Source: a virus
Length of the DNA: 64,000 bases
IMG/VR virus record: IMGVR_UViG_3300000295_000002
Span: 19,700-83,699 of that record
Strand: one strand, 5' to 3'
The position numbers and the translations under genes are program-made. The notes under the pieces are model-generated. The model searched no databases. It was not told where the DNA came from and saw only the letters and a list, made by a program, of their open reading frames with translations. Within the stretch, counting starts at the first letter, position 1; each line of letters starts with the position of its first letter. Below, piece after piece: positions 137-43,628 of the stretch.

Positions 137-150
137 CTTTCTTTTTTTTG

Positions 151-195
151 TTAAAACCTTGGCGGCAGACTAACTTAATAATCTGACCGCCAAGG
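151..195 (-). terminator. intrinsic terminator downstream of the tRNA cluster
   Basis: CCTTGGCGG (157-165) pairs with CCGCCAAGG (187-195), with an inner CAGA/TCTG extension. On the minus strand the hairpin is followed by TTTTAA. Confidence 0.5.
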
Positions 196-249
196 GAAAA
201 CAGTTTAATTTTAAAATTTAATCATTTCTATACGACAAAGTAAAAAATG

Positions 250-340
250 CGCCCTTAGATGGTATCGAGCCATCTTCTCTACATACTGGTCGGAGCATTA
301 AATATGCGTATGTAGCGCATTACCTAATTGCTTTAAGGGC
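250..340 (-). tRNA. non-canonical tRNA-like gene (enlarged anticodon region, isotype undetermined)
   Basis: Minus strand: acceptor GCCCTTA/TAAGGGC (7 bp), D arm GCA-ATTAGGTAA-TGC, T arm GATGG-CTCGATA-CCATC. The anticodon position is an 8-bp stem (CTACATAC/GTATGTAG) enclosing 21 nt. No 5-bp stem with a 7-nt loop can be drawn. About 91 nt. Confidence 0.45.
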
Positions 341-496
341 AAAACTCAACGACTTATCCCAAGCAGTTGAGAAAAAAATAAATTATTTAAGTAAAACAAA
401 ACACTTAAAAAGTGTCGATTCCAAATAAAGTACAACTACTTTCACAAGCTGTCATACAAGTATGAAAGATAATTAATAATTAAAAAATGTATTGAG

Positions 497-567
497 TAGT
501 TCCAGACTGAATCGAACAATCTCTAAGAGAACCAAAATCTCTTGTGCTACCGTTACACCATAGAACC
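497..567 (-). tRNA. tRNA-Gln (anticodon TTG)
   Basis: 71-nt cloverleaf on the minus strand: acceptor GGTTCTA/TGGAACT (two G-U pairs), D arm GTGT-AACGGTA-GCAC, anticodon arm AGAGA-TTTTGGT-TCTCT, T arm GATTG-TTCGATT-CAGTC. Confidence 0.8.
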
Positions 568-660
568 ATGAAGCATCATATTCTCACGAACTTGATGCTA
601 AGATTTAAAAAGCTAATTAAGCACTTTACCTTATAACCTTATAACCAAAAAAATGAGTGT

Positions 661-731
661 TGCAGAGTGCAGGATTCGAACCTGCGACCTCTAGGACATG
701 AAACTAGCGAGCTACCACTGCTCCAACCTGC
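661..731 (-). tRNA. tRNA with CAT anticodon (Met or lysidine-Ile), slightly atypical acceptor
   Basis: Minus strand: D arm GAGC-AGTGGTA-GCTC, anticodon arm CTAGT-TTCATGT-CCTAG, T arm GCAGG-TTCGAAT-CCTGC. The acceptor GCAGGTT/ACTCTGC pairs at 6 of 7 positions and the acceptor-to-D junction is short. Confidence 0.6.
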
Positions 732-864
732 GATTTGTGCAGCCTATCTTCACAGACAGACTGCATTGCCATCATTGTCAAATTCAAATTCAAATTTTGT
801 TAATTAAAATATAAACAAACAAGTAATCAAATAAAATATTTATGCAAAAACATTTAGAACTTTG

Positions 865-954
865 GAGATATTGTCGGATTCGAACCAACACTTCCATACG
901 ATAAGAACGGTATCTTCAAGTTGTATGACGTGCTTCCGTTTACACTAAATATCT
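865..954 (-). tRNA. non-canonical tRNA-like gene (enlarged anticodon region, isotype undetermined)
   Basis: Minus strand: acceptor AGATATT/AATATCT, D arm GTGT-AAACGGAA-GCAC, T arm GTTGG-TTCGAAT-CCGAC. The anticodon position is a 6-bp stem (TCATAC/GTATGG) enclosing 23 nt (AACTTGAA plus hairpin GATA-CCGTTCT-TATC). Confidence 0.5.
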
Positions 955-1109
955 CTTTGTTGTTATTTAATTAAAGTATTGAGAAGTAATCTCTACTTTA
1001 AGTAGTGTTTAAGTCTCATTCTTTGACTTAACTCTGTTCAGAGTTAGCTAGACTTCTATATTCGTAATAAACGTTGTACTATCTAATAATAATAATAATT
1101 GAAAATTTG

Positions 1110-1209
1110 TGCAGGGAGGCGGAATCGAACCGCCACTATCTCACACGATAAGAAGAGGTATTATCTATTGTGCGAGGTGTGCAAGAATACCACTTACACC
1201 ATACCCTGC
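1110..1209 (-). tRNA. non-canonical tRNA-like gene (enlarged D loop and anticodon region)
   Basis: Minus strand: acceptor GCAGGGT/TCCCTGC, D arm GTGTA-AGTGGTATTCT-TGCAC, T arm GGCGG-TTCGATT-CCGCC. The anticodon position is a 7-bp stem (CTCGCAC/GTGTGAG) enclosing 23 nt (AATA plus hairpin GATAA-TACCTCTTC-TTATC). About 100 nt. Confidence 0.5.
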
Positions 1210-1644
1210 TGTTTTATGTACCTAAAACCATGGAACTTTCTGTCGTTTGTGAATGCCACGATATTAATCGTTTCCGTATTCCCGATACAGCTAGCATTGA
1301 CGTTCCGTATGACACTCCATACATATTATAAATATCTTACACGTAAGATGGCAATAATACATACTTCGACTAGAATACTACATAGCAAACGATACAGACC
1401 TATATTATGCCCTTTGCTTGTGCTGATGTTTCAGCATAGTTCATCGGTATAGTCTATGTAATATCTGTTACTGACTAGTTTTTCGTATGTCGTGCGTCCT
1501 TTTCGCCAGGTCACGGCATCCATTGATGCTCTCCGGCTACTTCTTTTCCACGCATACTATATTCTGTGCGTCAATATGTCAAAGAACTCTTCTCTAGCTT
1601 TCAGTTTCATCACTTATAGTGATAATCTGATTCTAAAAGAATTG

Positions 1645-1718
1645 CGGTTTCAGCAGGATTCGAACCTACGACCTATCGGTTAACAGCCGACCGCTCTAAC
1701 CATCTGAGCTATGAAACC
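1645..1718 (-). tRNA. tRNA-Asn (anticodon GTT)
   Basis: Canonical 74-nt cloverleaf: acceptor GGTTTCA/TGAAACC, D arm GCTC-AGATGGTTA-GAGC, anticodon arm GTCGG-CTGTTAA-CCGAT, T arm GTAGG-TTCGAAT-CCTGC. Confidence 0.9.
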
Positions 1719-1797: not shown

Positions 1798-2007
1798 CTA
1801 ATATATACGATGGCTTTCAAGCAGATTATCTATATCGCTTGCGAGGAAGAATGCAGAATGACCTATCATGCAGTGTGGTAGCTTTCCGCTCTTTCTCAAC
1901 TCAACTATGAACGACTTTCCCATACCTATGTATGATGCAGCTTCATCAGTTGATAGCCATTTCTTAGCAATCTTTTCGACCACTACTTTCTTCTTCGGTG
2001 TTGCCAT
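1798..2007 (-). CDS. excisionase-like / MerR-type helix-turn-helix DNA-binding protein
   Basis: 69-aa ORF. WLSTDEAASYIGMGKSFIVELRKSGKLPH is a typical short Xis/AlpA-like HTH. It sits beside the integrase module. Confidence 0.6.
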   Translation of the reverse strand: MATPKKKVVVEKIAKKWLSTDEAASYIGMGKSFIVELRKSGKLPHCMIGHSAFFLASDIDNLLESHRIY

Positions 2008-2022
2008 TTTATTATTCTCCTA

Positions 2023-2373
2023 TTACTTTTCAAGCATCCTTTGCAGAAATGCTTTTTCGTTTTCTAGGCATTGTACTCGTTCTTCAAGTCTTGCCTTTTC
2101 GATTCGTAATTGTGTTGCGTCATCTATCTGACCTATCATTACAGGTGCATCACCTTTTCCGTAGGCGAGCCATTGTAAATCAACCTTTAGGTTAGAGCAA
2201 ATAGCCATCATAGCTGCCTTGGTAAAATTCTGCTTACCTCTTAGCATCTTTGATAGGTTAGAGCAATCGAGACCAACATCAACCGAAAACGACCTTGTGG
2301 ACTTGTAGTTGCCCAACTCTATAACCTTTGCAACCCTCTGACGAACCTCTTCCTGATTATATTCTATCTTCAT
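2023..2373 (-). CDS. XRE/CI-like HTH transcriptional regulator
   Basis: ORF 2023..2403, with the start probably at MKIEYNQ (2373). HTH-like segment SFSVDVGLDCSNLSKMLRGK, WLAYGKG motif and a C-terminal coiled coil. Divergent from 2650..3099. Confidence 0.55.
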   Translation of the reverse strand: MKIEYNQEEVRQRVAKVIELGNYKSTRSFSVDVGLDCSNLSKMLRGKQNFTKAAMMAICSNLKVDLQWLAYGKGDAPVMIGQIDDATQLRIEKARLEERVQCLENEKAFLQRMLEK

Positions 2374-2432
2374 TATTTTCTTAAAATAACTATATTTAAC
2401 CAAAAAAGTTTGGTGGAATGAAGTTAAATAAC

Positions 2433-2649: not shown

Positions 2650-3099
2650 ATGAATGATATTGCGAAGAACTTAAAGTTTTGCTTCGACATAAGTAAATTC
2701 AAGTCGATGTCTCAGTTTTGCAAGGTAATAGGTATAGACCAAGCTAATCTCAGCAAGAAGATGAGCGAAAGTAATACCAAGTATTCTTTCAACAAGAATG
2801 ATATTCAAAAGATTTGCTACAATCTAGGTCTGAGAAAAGAATGGCTAGTAAATTCTGATGGCGATATGTTTGATGATAAAGCTGCCGTTAGTCCAAGTGA
2901 CTGGGTTTTTGGTAAAGATAGAACACCTAATATAAATATGGTGAACGAAGAAAACGCCCACCACAACAAACAGATAATTGGAGACTTCTCAGAGAGCGAA
3001 ATCAATCTGTTGCGTGAGCAGGTGGCAGACCTGCGCAAGCAAGTAGAGAGCAAGGATGCTCAAATCAAGCAGCTAATGGATTTGCTTGCAAAGAAGTAG
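2650..3099 (+). CDS. HTH transcriptional regulator (Cro/CI-like partner)
   Basis: 149 aa. SMSQFCKVIGIDQANLSKKM is HTH-like, with a WLVNSDG motif paralleling its divergent neighbour. C-terminal coiled coil LREQVADLRKQVESKDAQIKQLMDLL. Confidence 0.55.
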   Translation: MNDIAKNLKFCFDISKFKSMSQFCKVIGIDQANLSKKMSESNTKYSFNKNDIQKICYNLGLRKEWLVNSDGDMFDDKAAVSPSDWVFGKDRTPNINMVNEENAHHNKQIIGDFSESEINLLREQVADLRKQVESKDAQIKQLMDLLAKK

Positions 3100-3101
3100 G
3101 A

Positions 3102-3124
3102 ATGCAAGTAATATGCAAGTAAGG
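3102..3124 (+). repeat. tandem ATGCAAGTAA boxes (copy set 1)
   Basis: atgcaagtaat-atgcaagtaag. The 16-mer GCAAGTAATATGCAAG recurs at 3341-3356. Confidence 0.6.
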
Positions 3125-3338
3125 TATAATTTTAACACAATATGAAAACAAAGAAACTATCAGTAAACACTATATGTGTGAGGGGTGGATATACCCCAAA
3201 AAATGGTGAGCCTATTGAGCTTCACTTAACGCGATAAGCATTCACACTGAGTATCAATACGTTACGAGATTTAACGAGTAAAATATAAAGTAAAAAATGC
3301 CCGAAAAGCCCCGTAAATATGATAAAAACTGATAGACT

Positions 3339-3360
3339 TTGCAAGTAATATGCAAGCTAA
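3339..3360 (+). repeat. tandem (A/T)TGCAAG boxes (copy set 2) just upstream of int
   Basis: ttgcaagtaat-atgcaagctaa. Same 16-mer as at 3103-3118. Confidence 0.6.
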
Positions 3361-3374
3361 TAGGAGATAGAATT

Positions 3375-4541
3375 ATGAAGGTTTACGTTGAAGACAAGAC
3401 ATATAAGGTGTATTTCTCCATCACTCATAAGTGTAAGAGATTCTATATATACACAGGATTGCAATCGACAGAGAAGTTTGATGGTATGGTATTTCCTCGT
3501 TCAGACAAGTCTGCAAAGGCAAAAACTAAGCGACTGGCAGAGCTATATTCAAGCGTGGAAGACTATATACTGCTGCACAAGGGTGAGGACGTTCCGATGC
3601 TAAAAAGCCATCTGAAAGAGATTATAAAGGGTGGCAAGGTAGCTGAGAAGAATTTCCTCGACTATATGCAGATGTGTGCAGATTTCAAGAATTTGAAAGC
3701 TGGCACGAAGAGAGTATATGATGTGACCATCATCAGAATTAGAAATTTTGATGCTAAGTGTACATTTGATACCATCACTAGAGACTGGCTCGATAAGTTT
3801 GTGAAGCATGAATATGAAAGAGGACGGATGCCTAACGGAGTTCATATTGATTTGAGAAATATCAAGGCAACATTCAATTGGGCAATTGATAATGAGATAA
3901 CAACCCTATTCCCATTCCGTAAGTACGTACTTCCACATGAGGAAACAAGAAAGCGTTGTTTATCTCTAGAACAGATGAGACAGTTGCGTGATGCAGAGTT
4001 CCACACTAACCCTCAACGTGAATCAAGGGATTTGTTCATGCTAGGTTTCTATTTGATTGGTATCAATATATCAGACCTTCTCGATTTGAAGCAAACAGAC
4101 CTTCGTGGTGGCAGAATATGCTACAAGCGCAACAAGACGGGACGATTGTATGATATAAAGGTAGAACCAGAGGCGTTGGAGATTATAAAGCGATACAAAG
4201 GAAATAAATACCTTTTAAAGTATAAGGACAGCAGTAAGTTCAACCTCAAACACTTTGAGAGCAATTTGAATTTCAGACTTAAAAGGTTAGGTAAATTCAG
4301 AGAATATAGTAAAGAACCGATGTTCCCTTATCTTTCCACCTACTATAATCGCCATACGTGGGCAACGCTAGCAAGCGAGATTGATATACCGATGGAAGTT
4401 ATAGGCAGGGCATTAGGTCATGCGATGTGGGATAATGCGGTAACATCAACCTACATTAAATATGATACAAAGAAGATTGATGAAGCCAACAGAAAGGTTA
4501 TTGATTACCTTAACAAAGATTTAGAAGATACAGATTTATAA
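3375..4541 (+). CDS. int: tyrosine recombinase / phage integrase
   Basis: ORF 3339..4541, with a likely start at MKVYVED (3375). The C-terminal catalytic region has R..HTWATLA, LGH and a terminal Y (TSTYIKY), typical of Bacteroidota phage integrases. Confidence 0.9.
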   Translation: MKVYVEDKTYKVYFSITHKCKRFYIYTGLQSTEKFDGMVFPRSDKSAKAKTKRLAELYSSVEDYILLHKGEDVPMLKSHLKEIIKGGKVAEKNFLDYMQMCADFKNLKAGTKRVYDVTIIRIRNFDAKCTFDTITRDWLDKFVKHEYERGRMPNGVHIDLRNIKATFNWAIDNEITTLFPFRKYVLPHEETRKRCLSLEQMRQLRDAEFHTNPQRESRDLFMLGFYLIGINISDLLDLKQTDLRGGRICYKRNKTGRLYDIKVEPEALEIIKRYKGNKYLLKYKDSSKFNLKHFESNLNFRLKRLGKFREYSKEPMFPYLSTYYNRHTWATLASEIDIPMEVIGRALGHAMWDNAVTSTYIKYDTKKIDEANRKVIDYLNKDLEDTDL

Positions 4542-40970: not shown

Positions 40971-43628
40971 ATGAACACGAATAAAGATATAGAAATCAGA
41001 CCACAAGAGGGCTTTCAAATGTCCTTTGCAAGTAGTAATGTCGATGTGGTTTTCGGTGGTGGAAATCTTGGAGGGGGCAAGCTACAGCCGCTTGATTCCA
41101 AGATACTTACACCATCGGGATGGCAGACTATGGGCGATATGCAAGTTGGTTCTAAGGTGATGACTCCATTTGATGGAATTGCCACCGTGATTGCTGTATT
41201 TCCACAAGGCGTGAAAGATGTGTATGAACTTACAACGCTAGATGGACGAAAGTGTGAATGCGGTCTTGAACATCTATGGACGGTACGAACTCCAAAGCAA
41301 GTGCATAAGTATCGTTCTCATAATAAGGAATGGGGATGGACTATGACTTTGCAGACAAAAGACCTTATTGATGGGTTGGAGCAAGGAAAGAAATACTTCA
41401 TCCCAAACAACAAAGCTATAGAGTTTGGTGAAAAAGAACTGCCAATACCGCCATACGTATTAGGTGTTATGCTCGGTGATGGATGCCTAACTATTTGGCG
41501 TAACGAGAAAGGTTTTAAAATTTCCAATACAGAATGGGATATAATAAATAAGGTAGCTAAATTGACGGACACAACAAGGGTGTACGAGCAACCAAGCTGC
41601 GTTACTAAATTGTTCTATACACCACACTATAAGGAGTATAAGGAATATTTAAGAGAAGAATGTTTGTTGGATTATTCCTACAACAAGTTTATTCCTGAAA
41701 AATATCTTCACTCTAGCATTGAACAAAGAAAGCAATTGCTAGCAGGTTTATTTGATACCGATGGAAGTGTAGAACCTTACGATAATAGTTATAGCTTCTC
41801 TACGACAAGTGTAAGGCTTAAAGATACATTTATTGAGCTGTGTCGTAGTCTTGGATATACATGTTCTTGCAGAGAAGACAGAAGAGAAAAATATACGAAA
41901 GGTGTTGCTTACGACATAGTAATACGCACCGACGATATTATATTCACAAGCGAGAAGCATAAGGCTAGATACAATAATGAGCGGAACAAAACAAGAAAGT
42001 ACGCTAAAGGCAACGACCATTCACGGATTGTGTCTATCAAAAAGGTAAGAAGAGCCGAGTGCCAGTGTATTTTGGTTGATGATGAAAAGCATTTGTATAT
42101 CACGGATGATTACATTACAACCCACAACTCGTATGGTCTTGTACTTGCGATGGCAGAGCCGTTAATGACTGACCCAGATTTTCGCGCAATGATTTCACGC
42201 CGTTCACTTGGTAATCAAAAAGCAGGTGGAGGATTCGTAGAGAAGTTCAAACAGATATTCGGAGCTGATTTCGTGAAAATCAGAGAGAGCGAGAATCCGC
42301 GCGTTACATTTCCGAATGGAACGTTTGTCGATTTGACGTATCTTGACGATTCCAATATGGATAAGTTGAGAGAGCGCGCGAAAGGATGGGAGTACGATTT
42401 GATTGCGATTGACGAGTTGACGGAGATGACTTGGGAAGTTTTCTCATACGTCATGACTCGAAACAGAGGTCAGAGCAAGACGTTTACAGGTAAGTTCTTT
42501 GCAACACTTAACCCGAAGCGTAGCCACTGGACGAGAATATTTCTTGATTGGTATATTGGCTCAGATGGTTTTATCATCCCAGAGCGTGATGGTGTAGTCA
42601 GATACTTCTATTGTGCAGGACCGACTGTTAAGGATGTTGTTTGGGGAATGTCTAAGCGAGAAGTCTATGAAAAATGTAAGATAGATATAGATAGAAAGCT
42701 TAAAACCATTGGCGGCAACTTTGGATATGAAGTAATGATTAAGAGTTTTGTTTTCTATCAAGGTAAACTTGGTTCAAACAAGAAGATGCTTGAAAACAAC
42801 TCTGGCTATTTAGGTTCTGTAGCGGCATCGGGAGGTAGGATGGCACAAGCTCTTATGGAGGGTAACTTCAATGTTGACCCAGAAGAGGAAGAGGATATTC
42901 CGATTCCTAGCCAAGCGGCAAGAGATTGCTTCGTAAAAGACCCTGCTGTGAATGGTGACAAGTGGATAACAATCGACTTGGCAGACTACGGTAAGGATAA
43001 CACTCTGATGTTGTCATGGAACGGATTCCATATAGTCAATTACGAAATCGTGATGCATTCAACACCGCGAATTAATGCGGAAAGAGCTAGATTATTCGCG
43101 GCGAGTGAGGGAGTGGCAGAAAGCCATATTATCTATGATGCTACGGCAGGTAGGTATTTCAATGACTATATACCAGATGCTATCCCTTATATATCAGCAG
43201 CAAAGGCAATGGGAATTTATTATTTGTCTGCTATGACAATAAAAGACCTATGTTACTTGCGACTGAGCTACATGATTAAGCGAGGACAGCTTACATTCTC
43301 TGATAAGGTTGCGAATGCGGTTTATACGCATCAAAACCTCAAATACAGAGTTTCCATACAGAATGAGTTCATGGAAGAATGCGCGGTAGTTCGCTTTGAT
43401 AAGATGCAGAGTGGAAAGAAGAAGTTGCAGAGCAAGAAGGAAATGAACCGAAATCTTGGAAAAGACCGTTCTATGGATTTGCTCGACCCTTGCGCAATGA
43501 GAATGTACCCATGTTTGAATATGGAGTATGGTAGCGAGCTACAAGAAGGGTTCAGACTCGCAGCACAAGAAGTTGAAGAGAAAAATCCTAATGCTCAGAG
43601 CATTTATGATGATACGTTGTACTATTAA
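40971..43628 (+). CDS. terL: terminase large subunit, interrupted by an intein
   Basis: Walker A FGGGNLGGGK is followed after the intein by SYGLVLAM. Walker B-like DLIAIDELTEM. C-terminal nuclease-like region. 885 aa as the precursor, 536 aa without the intein. Confidence 0.9.
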   Translation: MNTNKDIEIRPQEGFQMSFASSNVDVVFGGGNLGGGKLQPLDSKILTPSGWQTMGDMQVGSKVMTPFDGIATVIAVFPQGVKDVYELTTLDGRKCECGLEHLWTVRTPKQVHKYRSHNKEWGWTMTLQTKDLIDGLEQGKKYFIPNNKAIEFGEKELPIPPYVLGVMLGDGCLTIWRNEKGFKISNTEWDIINKVAKLTDTTRVYEQPSCVTKLFYTPHYKEYKEYLREECLLDYSYNKFIPEKYLHSSIEQRKQLLAGLFDTDGSVEPYDNSYSFSTTSVRLKDTFIELCRSLGYTCSCREDRREKYTKGVAYDIVIRTDDIIFTSEKHKARYNNERNKTRKYAKGNDHSRIVSIKKVRRAECQCILVDDEKHLYITDDYITTHNSYGLVLAMAEPLMTDPDFRAMISRRSLGNQKAGGGFVEKFKQIFGADFVKIRESENPRVTFPNGTFVDLTYLDDSNMDKLRERAKGWEYDLIAIDELTEMTWEVFSYVMTRNRGQSKTFTGKFFATLNPKRSHWTRIFLDWYIGSDGFIIPERDGVVRYFYCAGPTVKDVVWGMSKREVYEKCKIDIDRKLKTIGGNFGYEVMIKSFVFYQGKLGSNKKMLENNSGYLGSVAASGGRMAQALMEGNFNVDPEEEEDIPIPSQAARDCFVKDPAVNGDKWITIDLADYGKDNTLMLSWNGFHIVNYEIVMHSTPRINAERARLFAASEGVAESHIIYDATAGRYFNDYIPDAIPYISAAKAMGIYYLSAMTIKDLCYLRLSYMIKRGQLTFSDKVANAVYTHQNLKYRVSIQNEFMEECAVVRFDKMQSGKKKLQSKKEMNRNLGKDRSMDLLDPCAMRMYPCLNMEYGSELQEGFRLAAQEVEEKNPNAQSIYDDTLYY
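41082..42128 (+). mobile_element. intein (349 aa) with LAGLIDADG homing endonuclease
   Basis: Hint N-block LQPLDSKILTPSGW, block B GLEHLW, LAGLIDADG motifs YVLGVMLGDGCL and LLAGLFDTDGSV, C-terminal CQCILVDDEKHLYITDDYITTHN followed by Ser (+1). Confidence 0.85.

What the first reader, a model, noticed from the sequence alone, without database searches (positions are those of the whole stretch)
250..1209. Three tRNA-like genes whose anticodon arm is replaced by a long stem enclosing 21-23 nt
- **What is normal.** Three members of the same-strand tRNA cluster (250-340, 865-954, 1110-1209) have 7-bp acceptor stems, D arms and T arms. Two of the three carry a GGTTCGA(A/T)TCC-type T loop; the 250-340 copy has an atypical CTCGATA loop.
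- **What is not.** Between the D and T arms each has a 6-8 bp stem (CTACATAC/GTATGTAG, TCATAC/GTATGG, CTCGCAC/GTGTGAG). That stem encloses 21-23 nt made of a small inner hairpin plus a 4-8 nt single strand. I scanned every register and found no 5-bp stem with a 7-nt loop.
- **Shared sequence.** Two of them share the block TTCTTATCGT(A/G)TG. Short strings shaped like an anticodon loop (CTTGAAG, CTCCGAC) sit in the single-stranded parts.
- **Context.** Canonical tRNA-Gln, tRNA-CAT and tRNA-Asn lie between them, so the cluster is probably expressed as a unit and ends at the 151-195 terminator.
- **Possible explanations.** Short insertions or introns that need processing; tRNA mimics or decoys (for example against anticodon nucleases); or decayed genes.
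Basis: seen in the sequence. Interest (0 to 1): 0.7.

Follow-up and report, generated by a model that had tools for sequence, protein, structure and literature searches.

The report
Phage tRNA look-alikes with remodelled anticodon arms
Three genes in a gut-phage tRNA cluster encode conserved, tRNA-shaped RNAs that carry 12-16 extra bases next to a Lys- or Arg-type anticodon motif, so they probably cannot read codons normally and may act as tRNA mimics in the phage-host conflict.

Summary
On the minus strand, 250-340 (A), 865-955 (B) and 1110-1209 (C) have tRNA acceptor, D and T arms. A 6-8 bp stem replaces the anticodon arm and encloses 21-23 nt.

They are not chance and not decay. B, C and A recur only in one clade of temperate phages, probably of Segatella/Prevotella. 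Across 21 distinct B sequences the enclosing stem covaries at every pair. Only 1 of 14 acceptor positions is fixed, but 18 of 23 insert positions are.

Two points are new:
- **Architecture.** The extra 12-16 nt always lie 5' of an anticodon-loop-like heptamer. This is UUCUUAU (CUU, Lys; UUU in some C copies) in B and C, and CUCCKAC (CCG or CCU, Arg) in A.
- **Acceptor end of B.** G-1 opposite C73, the tRNA-His hallmark, is invariant.

No single excision restores a standard loop in A or B, and no insert-less allele was found. Neighbouring tRNA bodies in related phages keep their arms but have hypervariable anticodon arms.

My best reading is early-expressed, non-decoding tRNA mimics, perhaps decoys for tRNA-directed defences. 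The function is inferred, not shown. The closest precedent is the "enigmatic introns" in Lak megaphage tRNAs.

The parts
250..340 (-). Element A: a tRNA-like gene. It has a 7-bp acceptor, a short D arm with GG, the T loop CUCGAUA and discriminator G.
   Evidence: There are about 30 variants plus one distant homologue (L032) in which the acceptor, T stem and outer stem all covary.
279..315 (-). Remodelled anticodon arm of A. The 8-bp stem occupies 308-315 and 279-286. It encloses 287-307, which reads as a 12-nt insertion (GCAUAUUUAAUG), the heptamer CUCCGAC (anticodon-like CCG, Arg) and CA.
   Evidence: The core AUUUAAWGCUCCKACCA is conserved. In L032 the heptamer is CUCCUAC, and deleting the 12 nt gives a perfect stem plus a 7-nt loop.
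865..955 (-). Element B: a tRNA-like gene with an 8-bp acceptor helix (G-1 at 955 pairs with C73 at 865). Its D arm (G18 G19) and T arm (UUCGAAU) are canonical.
   Evidence: Rfam tRNA model, 41.7 bits with a 24-nt insertion. G-1 and C73 are present in 35 of 35 well-parsed distinct variants.
894..928 (-). Remodelled anticodon arm of B. The covarying stem occupies 923-928 and 894-899. It encloses the 23-nt module at 900-922: AA, a 5-6 nt variable linker, GAUACC, N, the heptamer UUCUUAU (CUU, Lys) and C. GAUA can pair with UAUC.
   Evidence: All 6 stem pairs show double changes. 18 of 23 module positions are invariant.
1110..1209 (-). Element C: a paralogue of B with a different acceptor (GCAGGG(U)/(U)CCCUGC, A73), an expanded D hairpin (7 bp, 7-nt loop) and a canonical T arm.
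   Evidence: z = -4.2. It is found only in the window's own subgroup. L007 has one compensatory acceptor change, GCAUGG/CCAUGC.
1140..1176 (-). Remodelled anticodon arm of C. The 7-bp stem occupies 1170-1176 and 1140-1146. It encloses the 23-nt module at 1147-1169, AAUAGAUAAUACCUCUUCUUAUC, which is homologous to the B module.
   Evidence: Variants include UUUUUAUC, a change from CUU to UUU that is still a Lys anticodon.
496..567 (-). Canonical tRNA-Gln(UUG). Its D arm resembles those of B and C.
661..731 (-). tRNA-Met(CAU) with one mismatch in the acceptor stem and one in the anticodon stem.
1644..1718 (-). Canonical tRNA-Asn(GUU), the first gene of the cluster.
   Evidence: 72 bits.
1479..1587 (-). 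A conserved structured RNA of unknown family (core 1479-1560) with an invariant promoter-like element (1553-1587). It lies inside the cluster.
150..196 (-). Long hairpin followed by UUUU. It is the probable end of the cluster transcript.
   Evidence: -29 kcal/mol. It was not called by the simple terminator scan.
1798..2403 (-). Two small helix-turn-helix genes upstream on the same strand: one excisionase-like (HTH_17) and one cro-like. They face a cI-like gene at 2650-3099 (+) and the integrase at 3339-4541 (+).

Best explanation
A, B and C are genuine, selectively maintained genes for tRNA-shaped RNAs that do not decode in the normal way.

**Shown.**
- Each keeps the parts of a tRNA that give the L-shape and direct maturation: acceptor helix, D arm with G18 G19, and T arm.
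- In each, a covarying 5-8 bp stem carries 12-16 extra nucleotides directly 5' of a conserved anticodon-loop-like heptamer.
- The heptamer is UUCUUAU (CUU or UUU, Lys type) in B and C, and CUCCKAC (CCG or CCU, Arg type) in A.

**Inferred.**
- They are transcribed early from the leftward lytic operon, which runs cro-like gene, xis-like gene, tRNA cluster, then DUF1064 and two DNA methylases.
- They are cut out and matured like tRNAs by RNase P, 3' trimming and CCA addition. B keeps G-1.
- They accumulate as stable tRNA mimics.
- The enlarged, partly self-paired loop (GAUA with UAUC) and the over-long stem keep them out of the ribosomal decoding site, while still displaying a Lys- or Arg-type anticodon motif on a tRNA body.

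**Favoured function (not shown).** They engage proteins that read tRNA anticodon arms. The most plausible targets are host tRNA-cleaving defence nucleases, which they would meet as uncleavable decoys or inhibitors. This would be part of an arms race that has also scrambled the anticodon arms of neighbouring tRNA bodies in related phages.
For: **Real tRNA bodies.**

**Family restricted to one phage clade, with no background elsewhere.**
- Viral and genome collection scans: and 43/44.
- ARAGORN intron mode over 2.56 Mb.

**Selection on RNA structure.**
- The B/C outer stem is paired in 95.6% of cells against 67.6% in shuffles. All 6 pairs show double changes, and 0 of 500 shuffles reach the observed covariation score.
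- Nine different complementary stem sequences occur among 21 B variants.
- In the distant homologue L032, the acceptor, T stem and outer stem of A all covary.

**Selection on insert sequence.** 18 of 23 positions are invariant, against 1 of 14 acceptor positions.

**The heptamers change like anticodons.** CUU becomes UUU in C, and CCG becomes CCU in A.

**No route to a standard anticodon arm.**
- No deletion register gives one in window A or B.
- No insert-less allele or canonical tRNA-Lys appears in about 130 clade loci.

**Lineage-wide remodelling of anticodon arms.** In one neighbouring tRNA body, columns 1-26 and 47-74 are nearly invariant while columns 27-46 are hypervariable with indels.

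**Gene context.** The cluster lies in an early operon followed by orphan DNA methylases.

**Precedent.** Phage tRNAs counter tRNA-cleaving defences (PMC10264068, PMC11464382, PMC11555353).
Against: - No expression, processing or binding data exist.
- No tRNA nuclease is known or was found for the host. No tRNA-processing or defence-related partner gene appears in the window.
- A decoy would be expected to copy the target loop. Here part of the heptamer is probably paired.
- The His-type acceptor end of B does not fit a tRNA-Lys mimic.
- CGG, the codon matching the heptamer of A, is almost unused (10 of 460 Arg codons). This argues neither for decoding nor clearly for a decoy.
- Some copies have degenerate T arms (L074, L057).
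Confidence: 0.4

Rival explanations
1. They are working tRNAs (Lys for B and C, Arg for A). The extra 12-16 nt would be an intervening sequence that is removed, or a bulge that is tolerated. The result would be nuclease-resistant suppliers of tRNA-Lys(CUU) and tRNA-Arg.
For: - The heptamers have U33 and A37, and they change synonymously: CUU to UUU, and CCG to CCU.
- In L032, deleting exactly 12 nt from A gives the stem CCUUG/CAGGG with the loop CUCCUAC.
- AAG is 61% of Lys codons and 5.4% of all codons in the phage.
- GAUA pairing with UAUC resembles an anticodon-intron helix.
- Lak megaphages of Prevotella have conserved insertions in tRNA anticodon loops (PMC6784885).
Against: - For window A and B, no deletion gives a 5-bp stem with a 7-nt loop, U33 and R37. 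The best outcomes are 9-nt and 8-nt loops on 6-8 bp stems.
- Even in L032 the helix would be 8 bp.
- No insert-less allele was seen.
- To my knowledge, no bacterial machinery for protein-dependent tRNA splicing is known, and no ligase or endonuclease gene is in the window.
- B carries G-1:C73 rather than the A73 of tRNA-Lys.
- CGG is nearly unused.
Confidence: 0.2
2. They are natural tRNA scaffolds. The tRNA body would only provide processing and stability. The conserved module would be an effector, either an aptamer or a protein- or RNA-binding site, with a target unrelated to tRNA biology.
For: - The module is the most conserved part of the molecule.
- The H1 hairpin has an invariant stem sequence (GAUA/UAUC) and invariant loop ends (CC...UCU), with a variable middle and variable length. 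This is typical of a protein-binding hairpin.
- Engineered tRNA scaffolds with the anticodon arm replaced accumulate stably in bacteria (my own knowledge: Ponchon and Dardel 2007).
Against: - No complementary target of 9 nt or more exists elsewhere in the window.
- Pairing with the co-located structured RNA is no better than chance.
- The invariance of G-1:C73, and the anticodon-like substitutions in the heptamers, are not explained by a pure scaffold role.
Confidence: 0.2
3. They are remnants. They would be either decaying tRNA pseudogenes or scars and solo fragments left by a mobile insertion that targets anticodon loops. They would be kept, at most, as RNase P/Z processing signals.
For: - Some copies have degenerate T arms or acceptor mismatches (L074, L057, L032).
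- The A stem carries indels and bulges in several genomes.
- Neighbouring tRNA bodies have scrambled anticodon arms.
- Lak insertions show presence/absence polymorphism.
- A conserved insert inside divergent flanks is also the signature of a mobile element.
Against: - Compensatory changes occur in every helix.
- The module length is held at 22-25 nt by offsetting indels.
- 18 of 23 positions are invariant across deep divergence, while the intergenic spacers do not align at all.
- The module occurs nowhere outside these genes.
Confidence: 0.08

Closest known systems
'Enigmatic', highly conserved introns in tRNAs of Lak megaphages of Prevotella (Devoto et al. 2019, PMC6784885)
   Same: Both involve phages of Prevotella or Segatella. 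Both have insertions in the anticodon loop of phage tRNA genes, with insert sequences almost identical between genomes and no known removal mechanism.
   Different: - Lak inserts are 79-114 nt, sit at the canonical 37/38 site after an intact loop half, are themselves tRNA-like, and are absent from some alleles.
- Here the inserts are 12-16 nt, lie 5' of the heptamer at about position 31/32, leave no standard loop, and no insert-less allele was seen.
- The motifs GATACC and TTCTTATC are absent from the stored text of the Lak supplementary tables file, which includes Table S6 and was truncated when stored.
Phage tRNAs that escape or neutralise tRNA-cleaving defences: VapC-insensitive mycobacteriophage tRNAs (PMC10264068), T5 tRNA-Lys against PARIS (PMC11464382), and tRNA-Tyr against retron Eco7 (PMC11555353)
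   Same: In both cases phage-encoded tRNA genes have altered anticodon loops. Lys-type tRNAs are prominent. The arms-race logic fits the hypervariable anticodon arms seen here.
   Different: The known cases are point changes in otherwise canonical, decoding tRNAs. Here the loop is enlarged by 12-16 nt and decoding is unlikely. No cognate nuclease is known.
Non-decoding tRNA-like RNAs: tmRNA tRNA-like domain, bacterial YrlA (PMC4201824), gammaherpesvirus MHV68 vtRNAs, and phage T4 stable RNAs species 1 and 2 in its tRNA cluster (the last two from my own knowledge)
   Same: All have a tRNA body used for processing or protein binding without a functional anticodon. Some are encoded in viral tRNA clusters.
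   Different: There is no sequence or Rfam relationship. tmRNA and YrlA have different topology and partners. None carries this 23-nt or 21-nt module.
tRNA-His
   Same: B has G-1 opposite C73 in every variant. This is the acceptor-end signature that HisRS reads.
   Different: B has no GUG anticodon and its loop motif is CUU. The rest of the body resembles the phage tRNA-Gln D arm rather than tRNA-His.

Membership tests
Canonical elongator tRNA (Rfam RF00005) | 7-bp acceptor stem, D arm with G18 G19, and a 5-bp T stem with a U-U-C-R-A loop | tested here: met
   Deviations: A has A8 and the T loop CUCGAUA. C has a U.U mismatch and a 7-bp D hairpin.
Canonical elongator tRNA (Rfam RF00005) | 5-bp anticodon stem with a 7-nt loop, U33 and a purine at position 37 | tested here: not met
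   Default ARAGORN and Rfam at gathering thresholds miss all three. The stems are 6-8 bp and enclose 21-23 nt.
Canonical elongator tRNA (Rfam RF00005) | Score at or above the family gathering score (29 bits) | tested here: inconclusive
   B scores 41.7 bits, but only with a 24-nt insertion. A has no match. C has only a tRNA-Sec hit at 20.6 bits against a threshold of 47.
Intron-containing tRNA (archaeal/eukaryal type, or Lak-phage type) | Removing one contiguous segment restores a standard anticodon stem-loop. The canonical site is 37/38. | tested here: not met
   Every deletion of 0-30 nt was enumerated. There is no solution for window A, window B or B of L038. C has two formal solutions that B does not share. 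A of L032 gives a perfect loop, but on an 8-bp helix and at site 31/32.
Intron-containing tRNA (archaeal/eukaryal type, or Lak-phage type) | Insert-less alleles of the same gene exist in relatives | tested here: not met
   No allele lacking the insert was found among more than 35 distinct B variants, about 30 A variants and about 10 C variants.
Group I intron in a bacterial or phage tRNA | A self-splicing ribozyme core of about 200 nt or more | tested here: not met
   The inserts are 12-23 nt. There is no Rfam intron hit.
tRNA-His | G-1 paired with C73 | tested here: met
   B only: 35 of 35 well-parsed distinct variants, even though the upstream context varies. A and C lack the feature.
tRNA-His | GUG anticodon | tested here: not met
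   There is no GUG in a loop context. The heptamer is UUCUUAU.
tRNA-His | Charged by HisRS | not testable with these tools
   This needs aminoacylation assays or charged-tRNA sequencing.
tmRNA | tRNA-like domain with G3.U70 plus a tag reading frame. Detectable by ARAGORN and Rfam. | tested here: not met
   There is no tmRNA call. Position 3:70 is A-U (B, C) or C-G (A).
Anti-defence tRNA decoy (functional class) | Binds or blocks a tRNA-targeting host nuclease | not testable with these tools
   Only context supports this: an early operon followed by DNA methylases, and hypervariable anticodon arms in relatives.

The most novel reading that the evidence does not exclude
Temperate Segatella/Prevotella phages would carry a dedicated class of anticodon-disabled tRNA mimics. 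Each would be a tRNA body displaying a Lys- or Arg-type anticodon heptamer locked behind a conserved 12-16-nt insertion. One of them (B) would also have a tRNA-His acceptor end, so it could be charged or recognised independently of its loop. They would be made at the start of lytic growth to trap or blind host tRNA-cleaving immunity. The hypervariable anticodon arms on conserved tRNA bodies in sister phages, and the co-located unknown structured RNA, would be parts of the same RNA-based counter-defence locus.
Probability: 0.2. Interest if true: 0.85.

Novelty: new variant of a known kind. Interest (0 to 1): 0.66.

Why it matters
Phage tRNA genes are now seen as weapons against tRNA-cleaving defences. 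The known cases are ordinary tRNAs with point changes.

This clade adds three things:
- Conserved tRNA-shaped RNAs that keep an anticodon motif but are built so that normal decoding is unlikely.
- Sister genes whose anticodon arms alone are hypervariable.
- An unclassified structured RNA in the same operon.

If these are decoys or inhibitors, they would be an RNA-only counter-defence in an abundant human gut lineage. They would also point to undiscovered tRNA-targeting immunity in Prevotella/Segatella.

If instead the inserts are removed, that would be a new kind of tRNA intron processing in bacteria. It might also explain the enigmatic Lak megaphage tRNA introns.

Either way, annotation pipelines currently miss these genes or call them with arbitrary anticodons.

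Tried and rejected
1. **Stop-codon recoding or suppressor tRNAs.** Recoding TAG or TGA adds little ORF coverage. The CUA-like triplet in the B linker is not conserved.
It is lost in L310 and L057.
3. **The H1 loop CCGUUCU as an Asn (GUU) mimic.** The two middle bases vary: GU, AU, UU, UA, GA and AA.
4. **The inner hairpin of A.** It is not conserved.
5. **D-loop pairing with the module** (GGUAUU with AAUACC in C; ACGG with CCGU in B). It is broken in L259, L065 and others.
6. **Antisense target in the window.** There is no complementary match of 9 nt or more outside the genes themselves.
7. **Pairing of the module with the neighbouring structured RNA.** RNAduplex energies are no better than for 300 shuffles.
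8. **Similarity to the 16S rRNA 790 loop (AGAUACC), a K-turn or a T-loop.** I checked these only by eye against remembered consensus sequences. None is supported by the invariant positions.
9. **A tRNA-processing, ligase or defence partner gene.** None was found with Pfam, PHROGs or PADLOC on about 40 proteins.
10. **Literature.** I found no description of these modules. The supplement of the csRNA survey (PMC10690425) is not held.
11. **Not done.** I did not build a covariance model of the family, because regular-expression and ARAGORN searches had already enumerated the members.
Full report
**1. What is in the window**

The region 150-1720 holds a minus-strand cluster.
- Default ARAGORN and Rfam (gathering thresholds) report three tRNAs: Gln(UUG) 496-567, Met(CAU) 661-731 and Asn(GUU) 1644-1718.
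- I scanned both strands of the 64 kb for a 7-bp acceptor helix that directly follows a 5-bp/7-nt T arm. The scan found those three genes plus A (250-340), B (865-954) and C (1110-1209). Only three weaker hits (6 of 7 pairs) turned up elsewhere.
- Minimum-free-energy folds give a cloverleaf with one over-long arm for all three. The z-scores against shuffles are -2.9 for A, -0.3 for B and -4.2 for C.
- With relaxed filters, the Rfam tRNA model aligns B end to end at 41.7 bits (gathering score 29), with 24 inserted nucleotides in the anticodon loop. C reaches only 20.6 bits on the tRNA-Sec model. A matches nothing.
- ARAGORN in intron mode calls B "Ile(UAU) i(33,18)" and C "Ala(CGC) i(40,23)". 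At a lower threshold it calls A "Ala(CGC) i(38,20)". The resulting loops lack U33 or a purine at 37, so these anticodon calls are arbitrary.

The corrections are listed in the observation check.

**2. Genomic setting**

The window is a temperate tailed phage.
- It encodes an integrase (3339-4541), a cI-like gene (2650-3099, + strand) facing a cro-like gene (2023-2403) and an HTH_17 excisionase-like gene (1798-2007). It also encodes a tape measure protein, major head protein, portal and large terminase.
- The tRNA cluster follows the cro-like and xis-like genes on the same strand. It ends at a -29 kcal/mol hairpin with a U4 tail.
- In the near-identical contig L001 the operon continues with an 86-aa protein, a DUF1064 protein and two DNA methylases.
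- From this order I infer that the cluster belongs to the leftward early lytic operon. Expression was not tested.
- No tRNA ligase, kinase, nuclease or CCA-enzyme gene was found. PADLOC gave no hit to any model related to tRNA cleavage; four weak domain-level matches to other candidate defence models were not followed up.

**3. Relatives**

I fetched relatives in several ways.
- Integrase-based retrieval gave 80 IMG/VR loci. One group has 96-100% integrase identity and a second about 50%.
- Retrieval with the 86-aa protein gave 52 more loci, including an intermediate group, L310-L312.
- BLAST of the six genes against these loci aligns only the genes, not the spacers.
- B is present in both groups and in L310-L312. 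A is present in the window's group and in L032. C is present only in part of the window's group.
- Collection-wide pattern scans show that the B/C motif occurs in tRNA-like context only in this clade. Every other match was a chance hit inside a coding sequence. The same holds for the A motif.
- Among 185,579 species-representative genomes there were only two true hits. One is a Segatella copri MAG. The other is a probably mis-binned "Lachnospira" contig. The host is therefore probably Segatella/Prevotella.
- Across 2.56 Mb of fetched DNA, ARAGORN in intron mode made 101 intron-type calls, all in this clade.

**4. Evidence for selection**

For B I compared 21 distinct sequences.

| Region | Result |
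|---|---|
| Acceptor stem | 1 of 14 positions invariant |
| Stem next to the insert | 0 of 10 positions invariant; nine different, always complementary, versions (for example CAUAC/GUAUG, GCGAC/GUCGU, CCUGU/ACAGG, UCGGU/ACCGA) |
| 23-nt insert | 18 of 23 positions invariant |

- On an alignment of 15 B and C arms, all six stem pairs show double compensatory changes.
- In that alignment 95.6% of cells are paired, against 67.6% in shuffles. No shuffle out of 500 reaches the observed covariation score. Sliding the 3' partners by 1-3 columns destroys the signal.
- The insert length is held at 22-25 nt by offsetting indels.
- The distant copy of A in L032 has a different acceptor (GGUCUUU/AAAGACC), T stem and outer stem. 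All are complementary. It keeps AUUUAAAGCUCCUACCA and the unusual T loop CUCGAUA.

These patterns exclude neutral decay.

**5. Anatomy of the inserts**

B and C:
- The invariant features are AA, a variable 5-6-nt linker, GAUACC, 1-4 variable bases, then [U/A]UCUUAU and C.
- GAUA can pair with UAUC. One C-to-U change keeps a G.U pair (L007), but there is no double change. RNAalifold therefore supports only the outer stem.

All three elements share one architecture:
- The extra bases lie 5' of a heptamer that has U at position "33" and A at position "37".
- The heptamer abuts the 3' strand of the stem, separated by 1-2 nt.
- In B and C the heptamer is UUCUUAU (CUU, Lys). In A it is CUCCKAC (Arg).
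- The only substitutions inside the triplets are CUU to UUU (C of the L008 type) and CCG to CCU (A of L032). Both keep the amino-acid meaning. The chance of both doing so is roughly 1 in 9, so this is suggestive only.

I enumerated every single deletion of 0-30 nt.
- No register gives a 5-bp stem with a 7-nt loop, U33 and R37 for window A, window B or B of L038.
- For A of L032, deleting exactly 12 nt gives CCUUG/CAGGG with the loop CUCCUAC, but on an 8-bp helix.
- The same excision leaves a 9-nt loop in window A and an 8-nt loop in B and C.

**6. The acceptor end of B**

In 35 of 35 well-parsed distinct B variants the base before the acceptor is G and the discriminator is C. This makes an eighth base pair, even though the rest of the acceptor and the upstream context vary. 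G-1:C73 is the hallmark of bacterial tRNA-His and the main HisRS determinant (established knowledge). A and C lack it. This conflicts with a simple "tRNA-Lys" reading of B. It suggests that the identity of the acceptor end itself is under selection.

**7. A lineage-wide pattern**

Other tRNA bodies in these clusters also have aberrant anticodon arms.
- One body (GCYRCAUUAGCUCAGUUGGUCAGAGC...GCAGGUUCGAGUCCUGCAUGYRGCU) is almost invariant in columns 1-26 and 47-74. Columns 27-46 range from a canonical Thr(UGU) arm to AAGGUAC, AAGAUACC, UAACAUGG and UCUUUCAUUAGG, with indels.
- A Met-type body carries a 7-bp stem with a 9-nt loop in some genomes.
- Others have 6-, 8- or 9-nt loops.

Remodelling of the anticodon arm on a conserved body is thus a property of the clade. 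It fits either diversifying selection or relaxed constraint confined to that arm.

**8. Interpretation**

Shown: these are conserved, structured, tRNA-shaped RNA genes whose anticodon region cannot form a standard stem-loop.

Inferred: they mature like tRNAs and are expressed early.

I favour non-decoding mimics that present a Lys- or Arg-type motif to anticodon-arm readers, most plausibly tRNA-cleaving defence nucleases. The reasons are:
- phage tRNAs are known to counter such systems (PMC10264068, PMC11464382, PMC11555353);
- from my own knowledge, Lys and Arg tRNAs are classic targets;
- the sister genes show arms-race-like variation;
- the operon continues into anti-restriction-type methylases.

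I put this at about 0.4, because nothing functional has been shown.

The rivals are:
- removable or tolerated intervening sequences in working Lys and Arg tRNAs (0.2). AAG is 5.4% of the phage's codons, but CGG is almost unused;
- a tRNA scaffold carrying an unrelated effector module (0.2);
- remnants or scars of a mobile insertion (0.08).

**9. Comparison with what is known**

The closest precedent is the report that Lak megaphages of Prevotella encode tRNAs with "enigmatic", highly conserved introns (PMC6784885). Their Table S6 shows inserts of 79-114 nt at position 37/38 that are themselves tRNA-like, and some alleles lack them. The stored text of the supplementary tables file that includes Table S6 contains neither GATACC nor TTCTTATC; that text was truncated when stored.

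The present elements share the host genus and the conserved-insert theme. They differ in size, position, the lack of a standard loop and the lack of insert-less alleles. I found no description of these modules in the searchable literature.

I therefore file them as a new variant of a known kind, namely non-canonical phage tRNA-like genes. They are not members of any defined family.

**10. Seen in passing**

An 82-nt structured RNA (1479-1560) lies inside the cluster, preceded by an invariant promoter-like element.
- It is conserved across all phage groups at 71-90% identity, where the spacers otherwise do not align.
- RNAalifold predicts three helices, and 9 of 17 pairs show compensatory changes.
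- It has no Rfam match.
- It does not pair with the B module better than chance.

Noticed in passing
window 1479-1587 (minus strand): A conserved structured RNA of about 82 nt with no known family lies between tRNA-Asn and element C. It is preceded by the invariant element GTTCTTTGACATATTGA..ATAGTATG, which resembles a sigma-70 promoter (TTGACA, 17 nt, TAGTAT). It is present in all phage groups at 71-90% identity. It has three helices, and 9 of 17 pairs show compensatory changes. There is no Rfam hit at E<=10. Genomes with a variant form of this RNA lack element C.
   Followed up: partly
L038, L050, L053, L057, L070, L074, L077, L080, L313, L319 and others (the gene orthologous in position to window tRNA-Asn 1644-1718): One tRNA body is nearly invariant in its acceptor, D and T arms. 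Its anticodon arm (alignment columns 27-46) is hypervariable with indels. It ranges from canonical Thr(UGU) to loops with A32-A33 (AAGGUAC, AAGAUAC) and unrelated sequences.
   Followed up: partly
L031 3326-3405, L091, L118, L287; L047 784-864, L332, L336; L047 988-1059: There are further non-canonical tRNA-like genes in sister phages. One is a Met-type body with a 7-bp stem and a 9-nt loop (AAAAUAUGA). Another is an 81-nt body with a 6-bp stem and a 9-nt loop (ACCCUAUGG). Others have 6- or 8-nt loops, which ARAGORN reports as 2- or 4-base anticodons.
   Followed up: no
L032 2975-3083: A 108-nt element has a perfect 7-bp acceptor (CCCAGAG/CUCUGGG) and a T arm, but a long, G+C-rich insert between them.
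   Followed up: no
window 661-731: The tRNA-Met(CAU) has a U.C mismatch in the acceptor stem and another in the anticodon stem, and G at position 37. Relatives show variants of it. I did not determine whether it is an initiator, an elongator or an Ile2-type tRNA.
   Followed up: no
window 3100-3340; L002-L030 and L039-L071: Many IMG/VR contigs of this clade begin 100-400 nt upstream of the integrase. In the group with about 51% integrase identity, host-like tRNA-Thr(CGU) and tRNA-Gly(CCC) lie at that edge. The attachment site is therefore probably just upstream of the integrase gene. In the integrated prophage the tRNA cluster would sit at the opposite end.
   Followed up: no
L001 213-2805 (continuation of the operon beyond window position 1): Downstream of the cluster lie an 86-aa protein conserved in all groups (no Pfam family), a DUF1064 protein with a PD-(D/E)XK-like motif, and two N6/N4 DNA methylases.
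   Followed up: partly
window 40971-43628: The large terminase ORF is unusually long at 885 aa. It matches terminase profiles in two consecutive blocks (residues 33-387 and 387-640). Several of its phage homologues are annotated with inteins or homing endonucleases.
   Followed up: no
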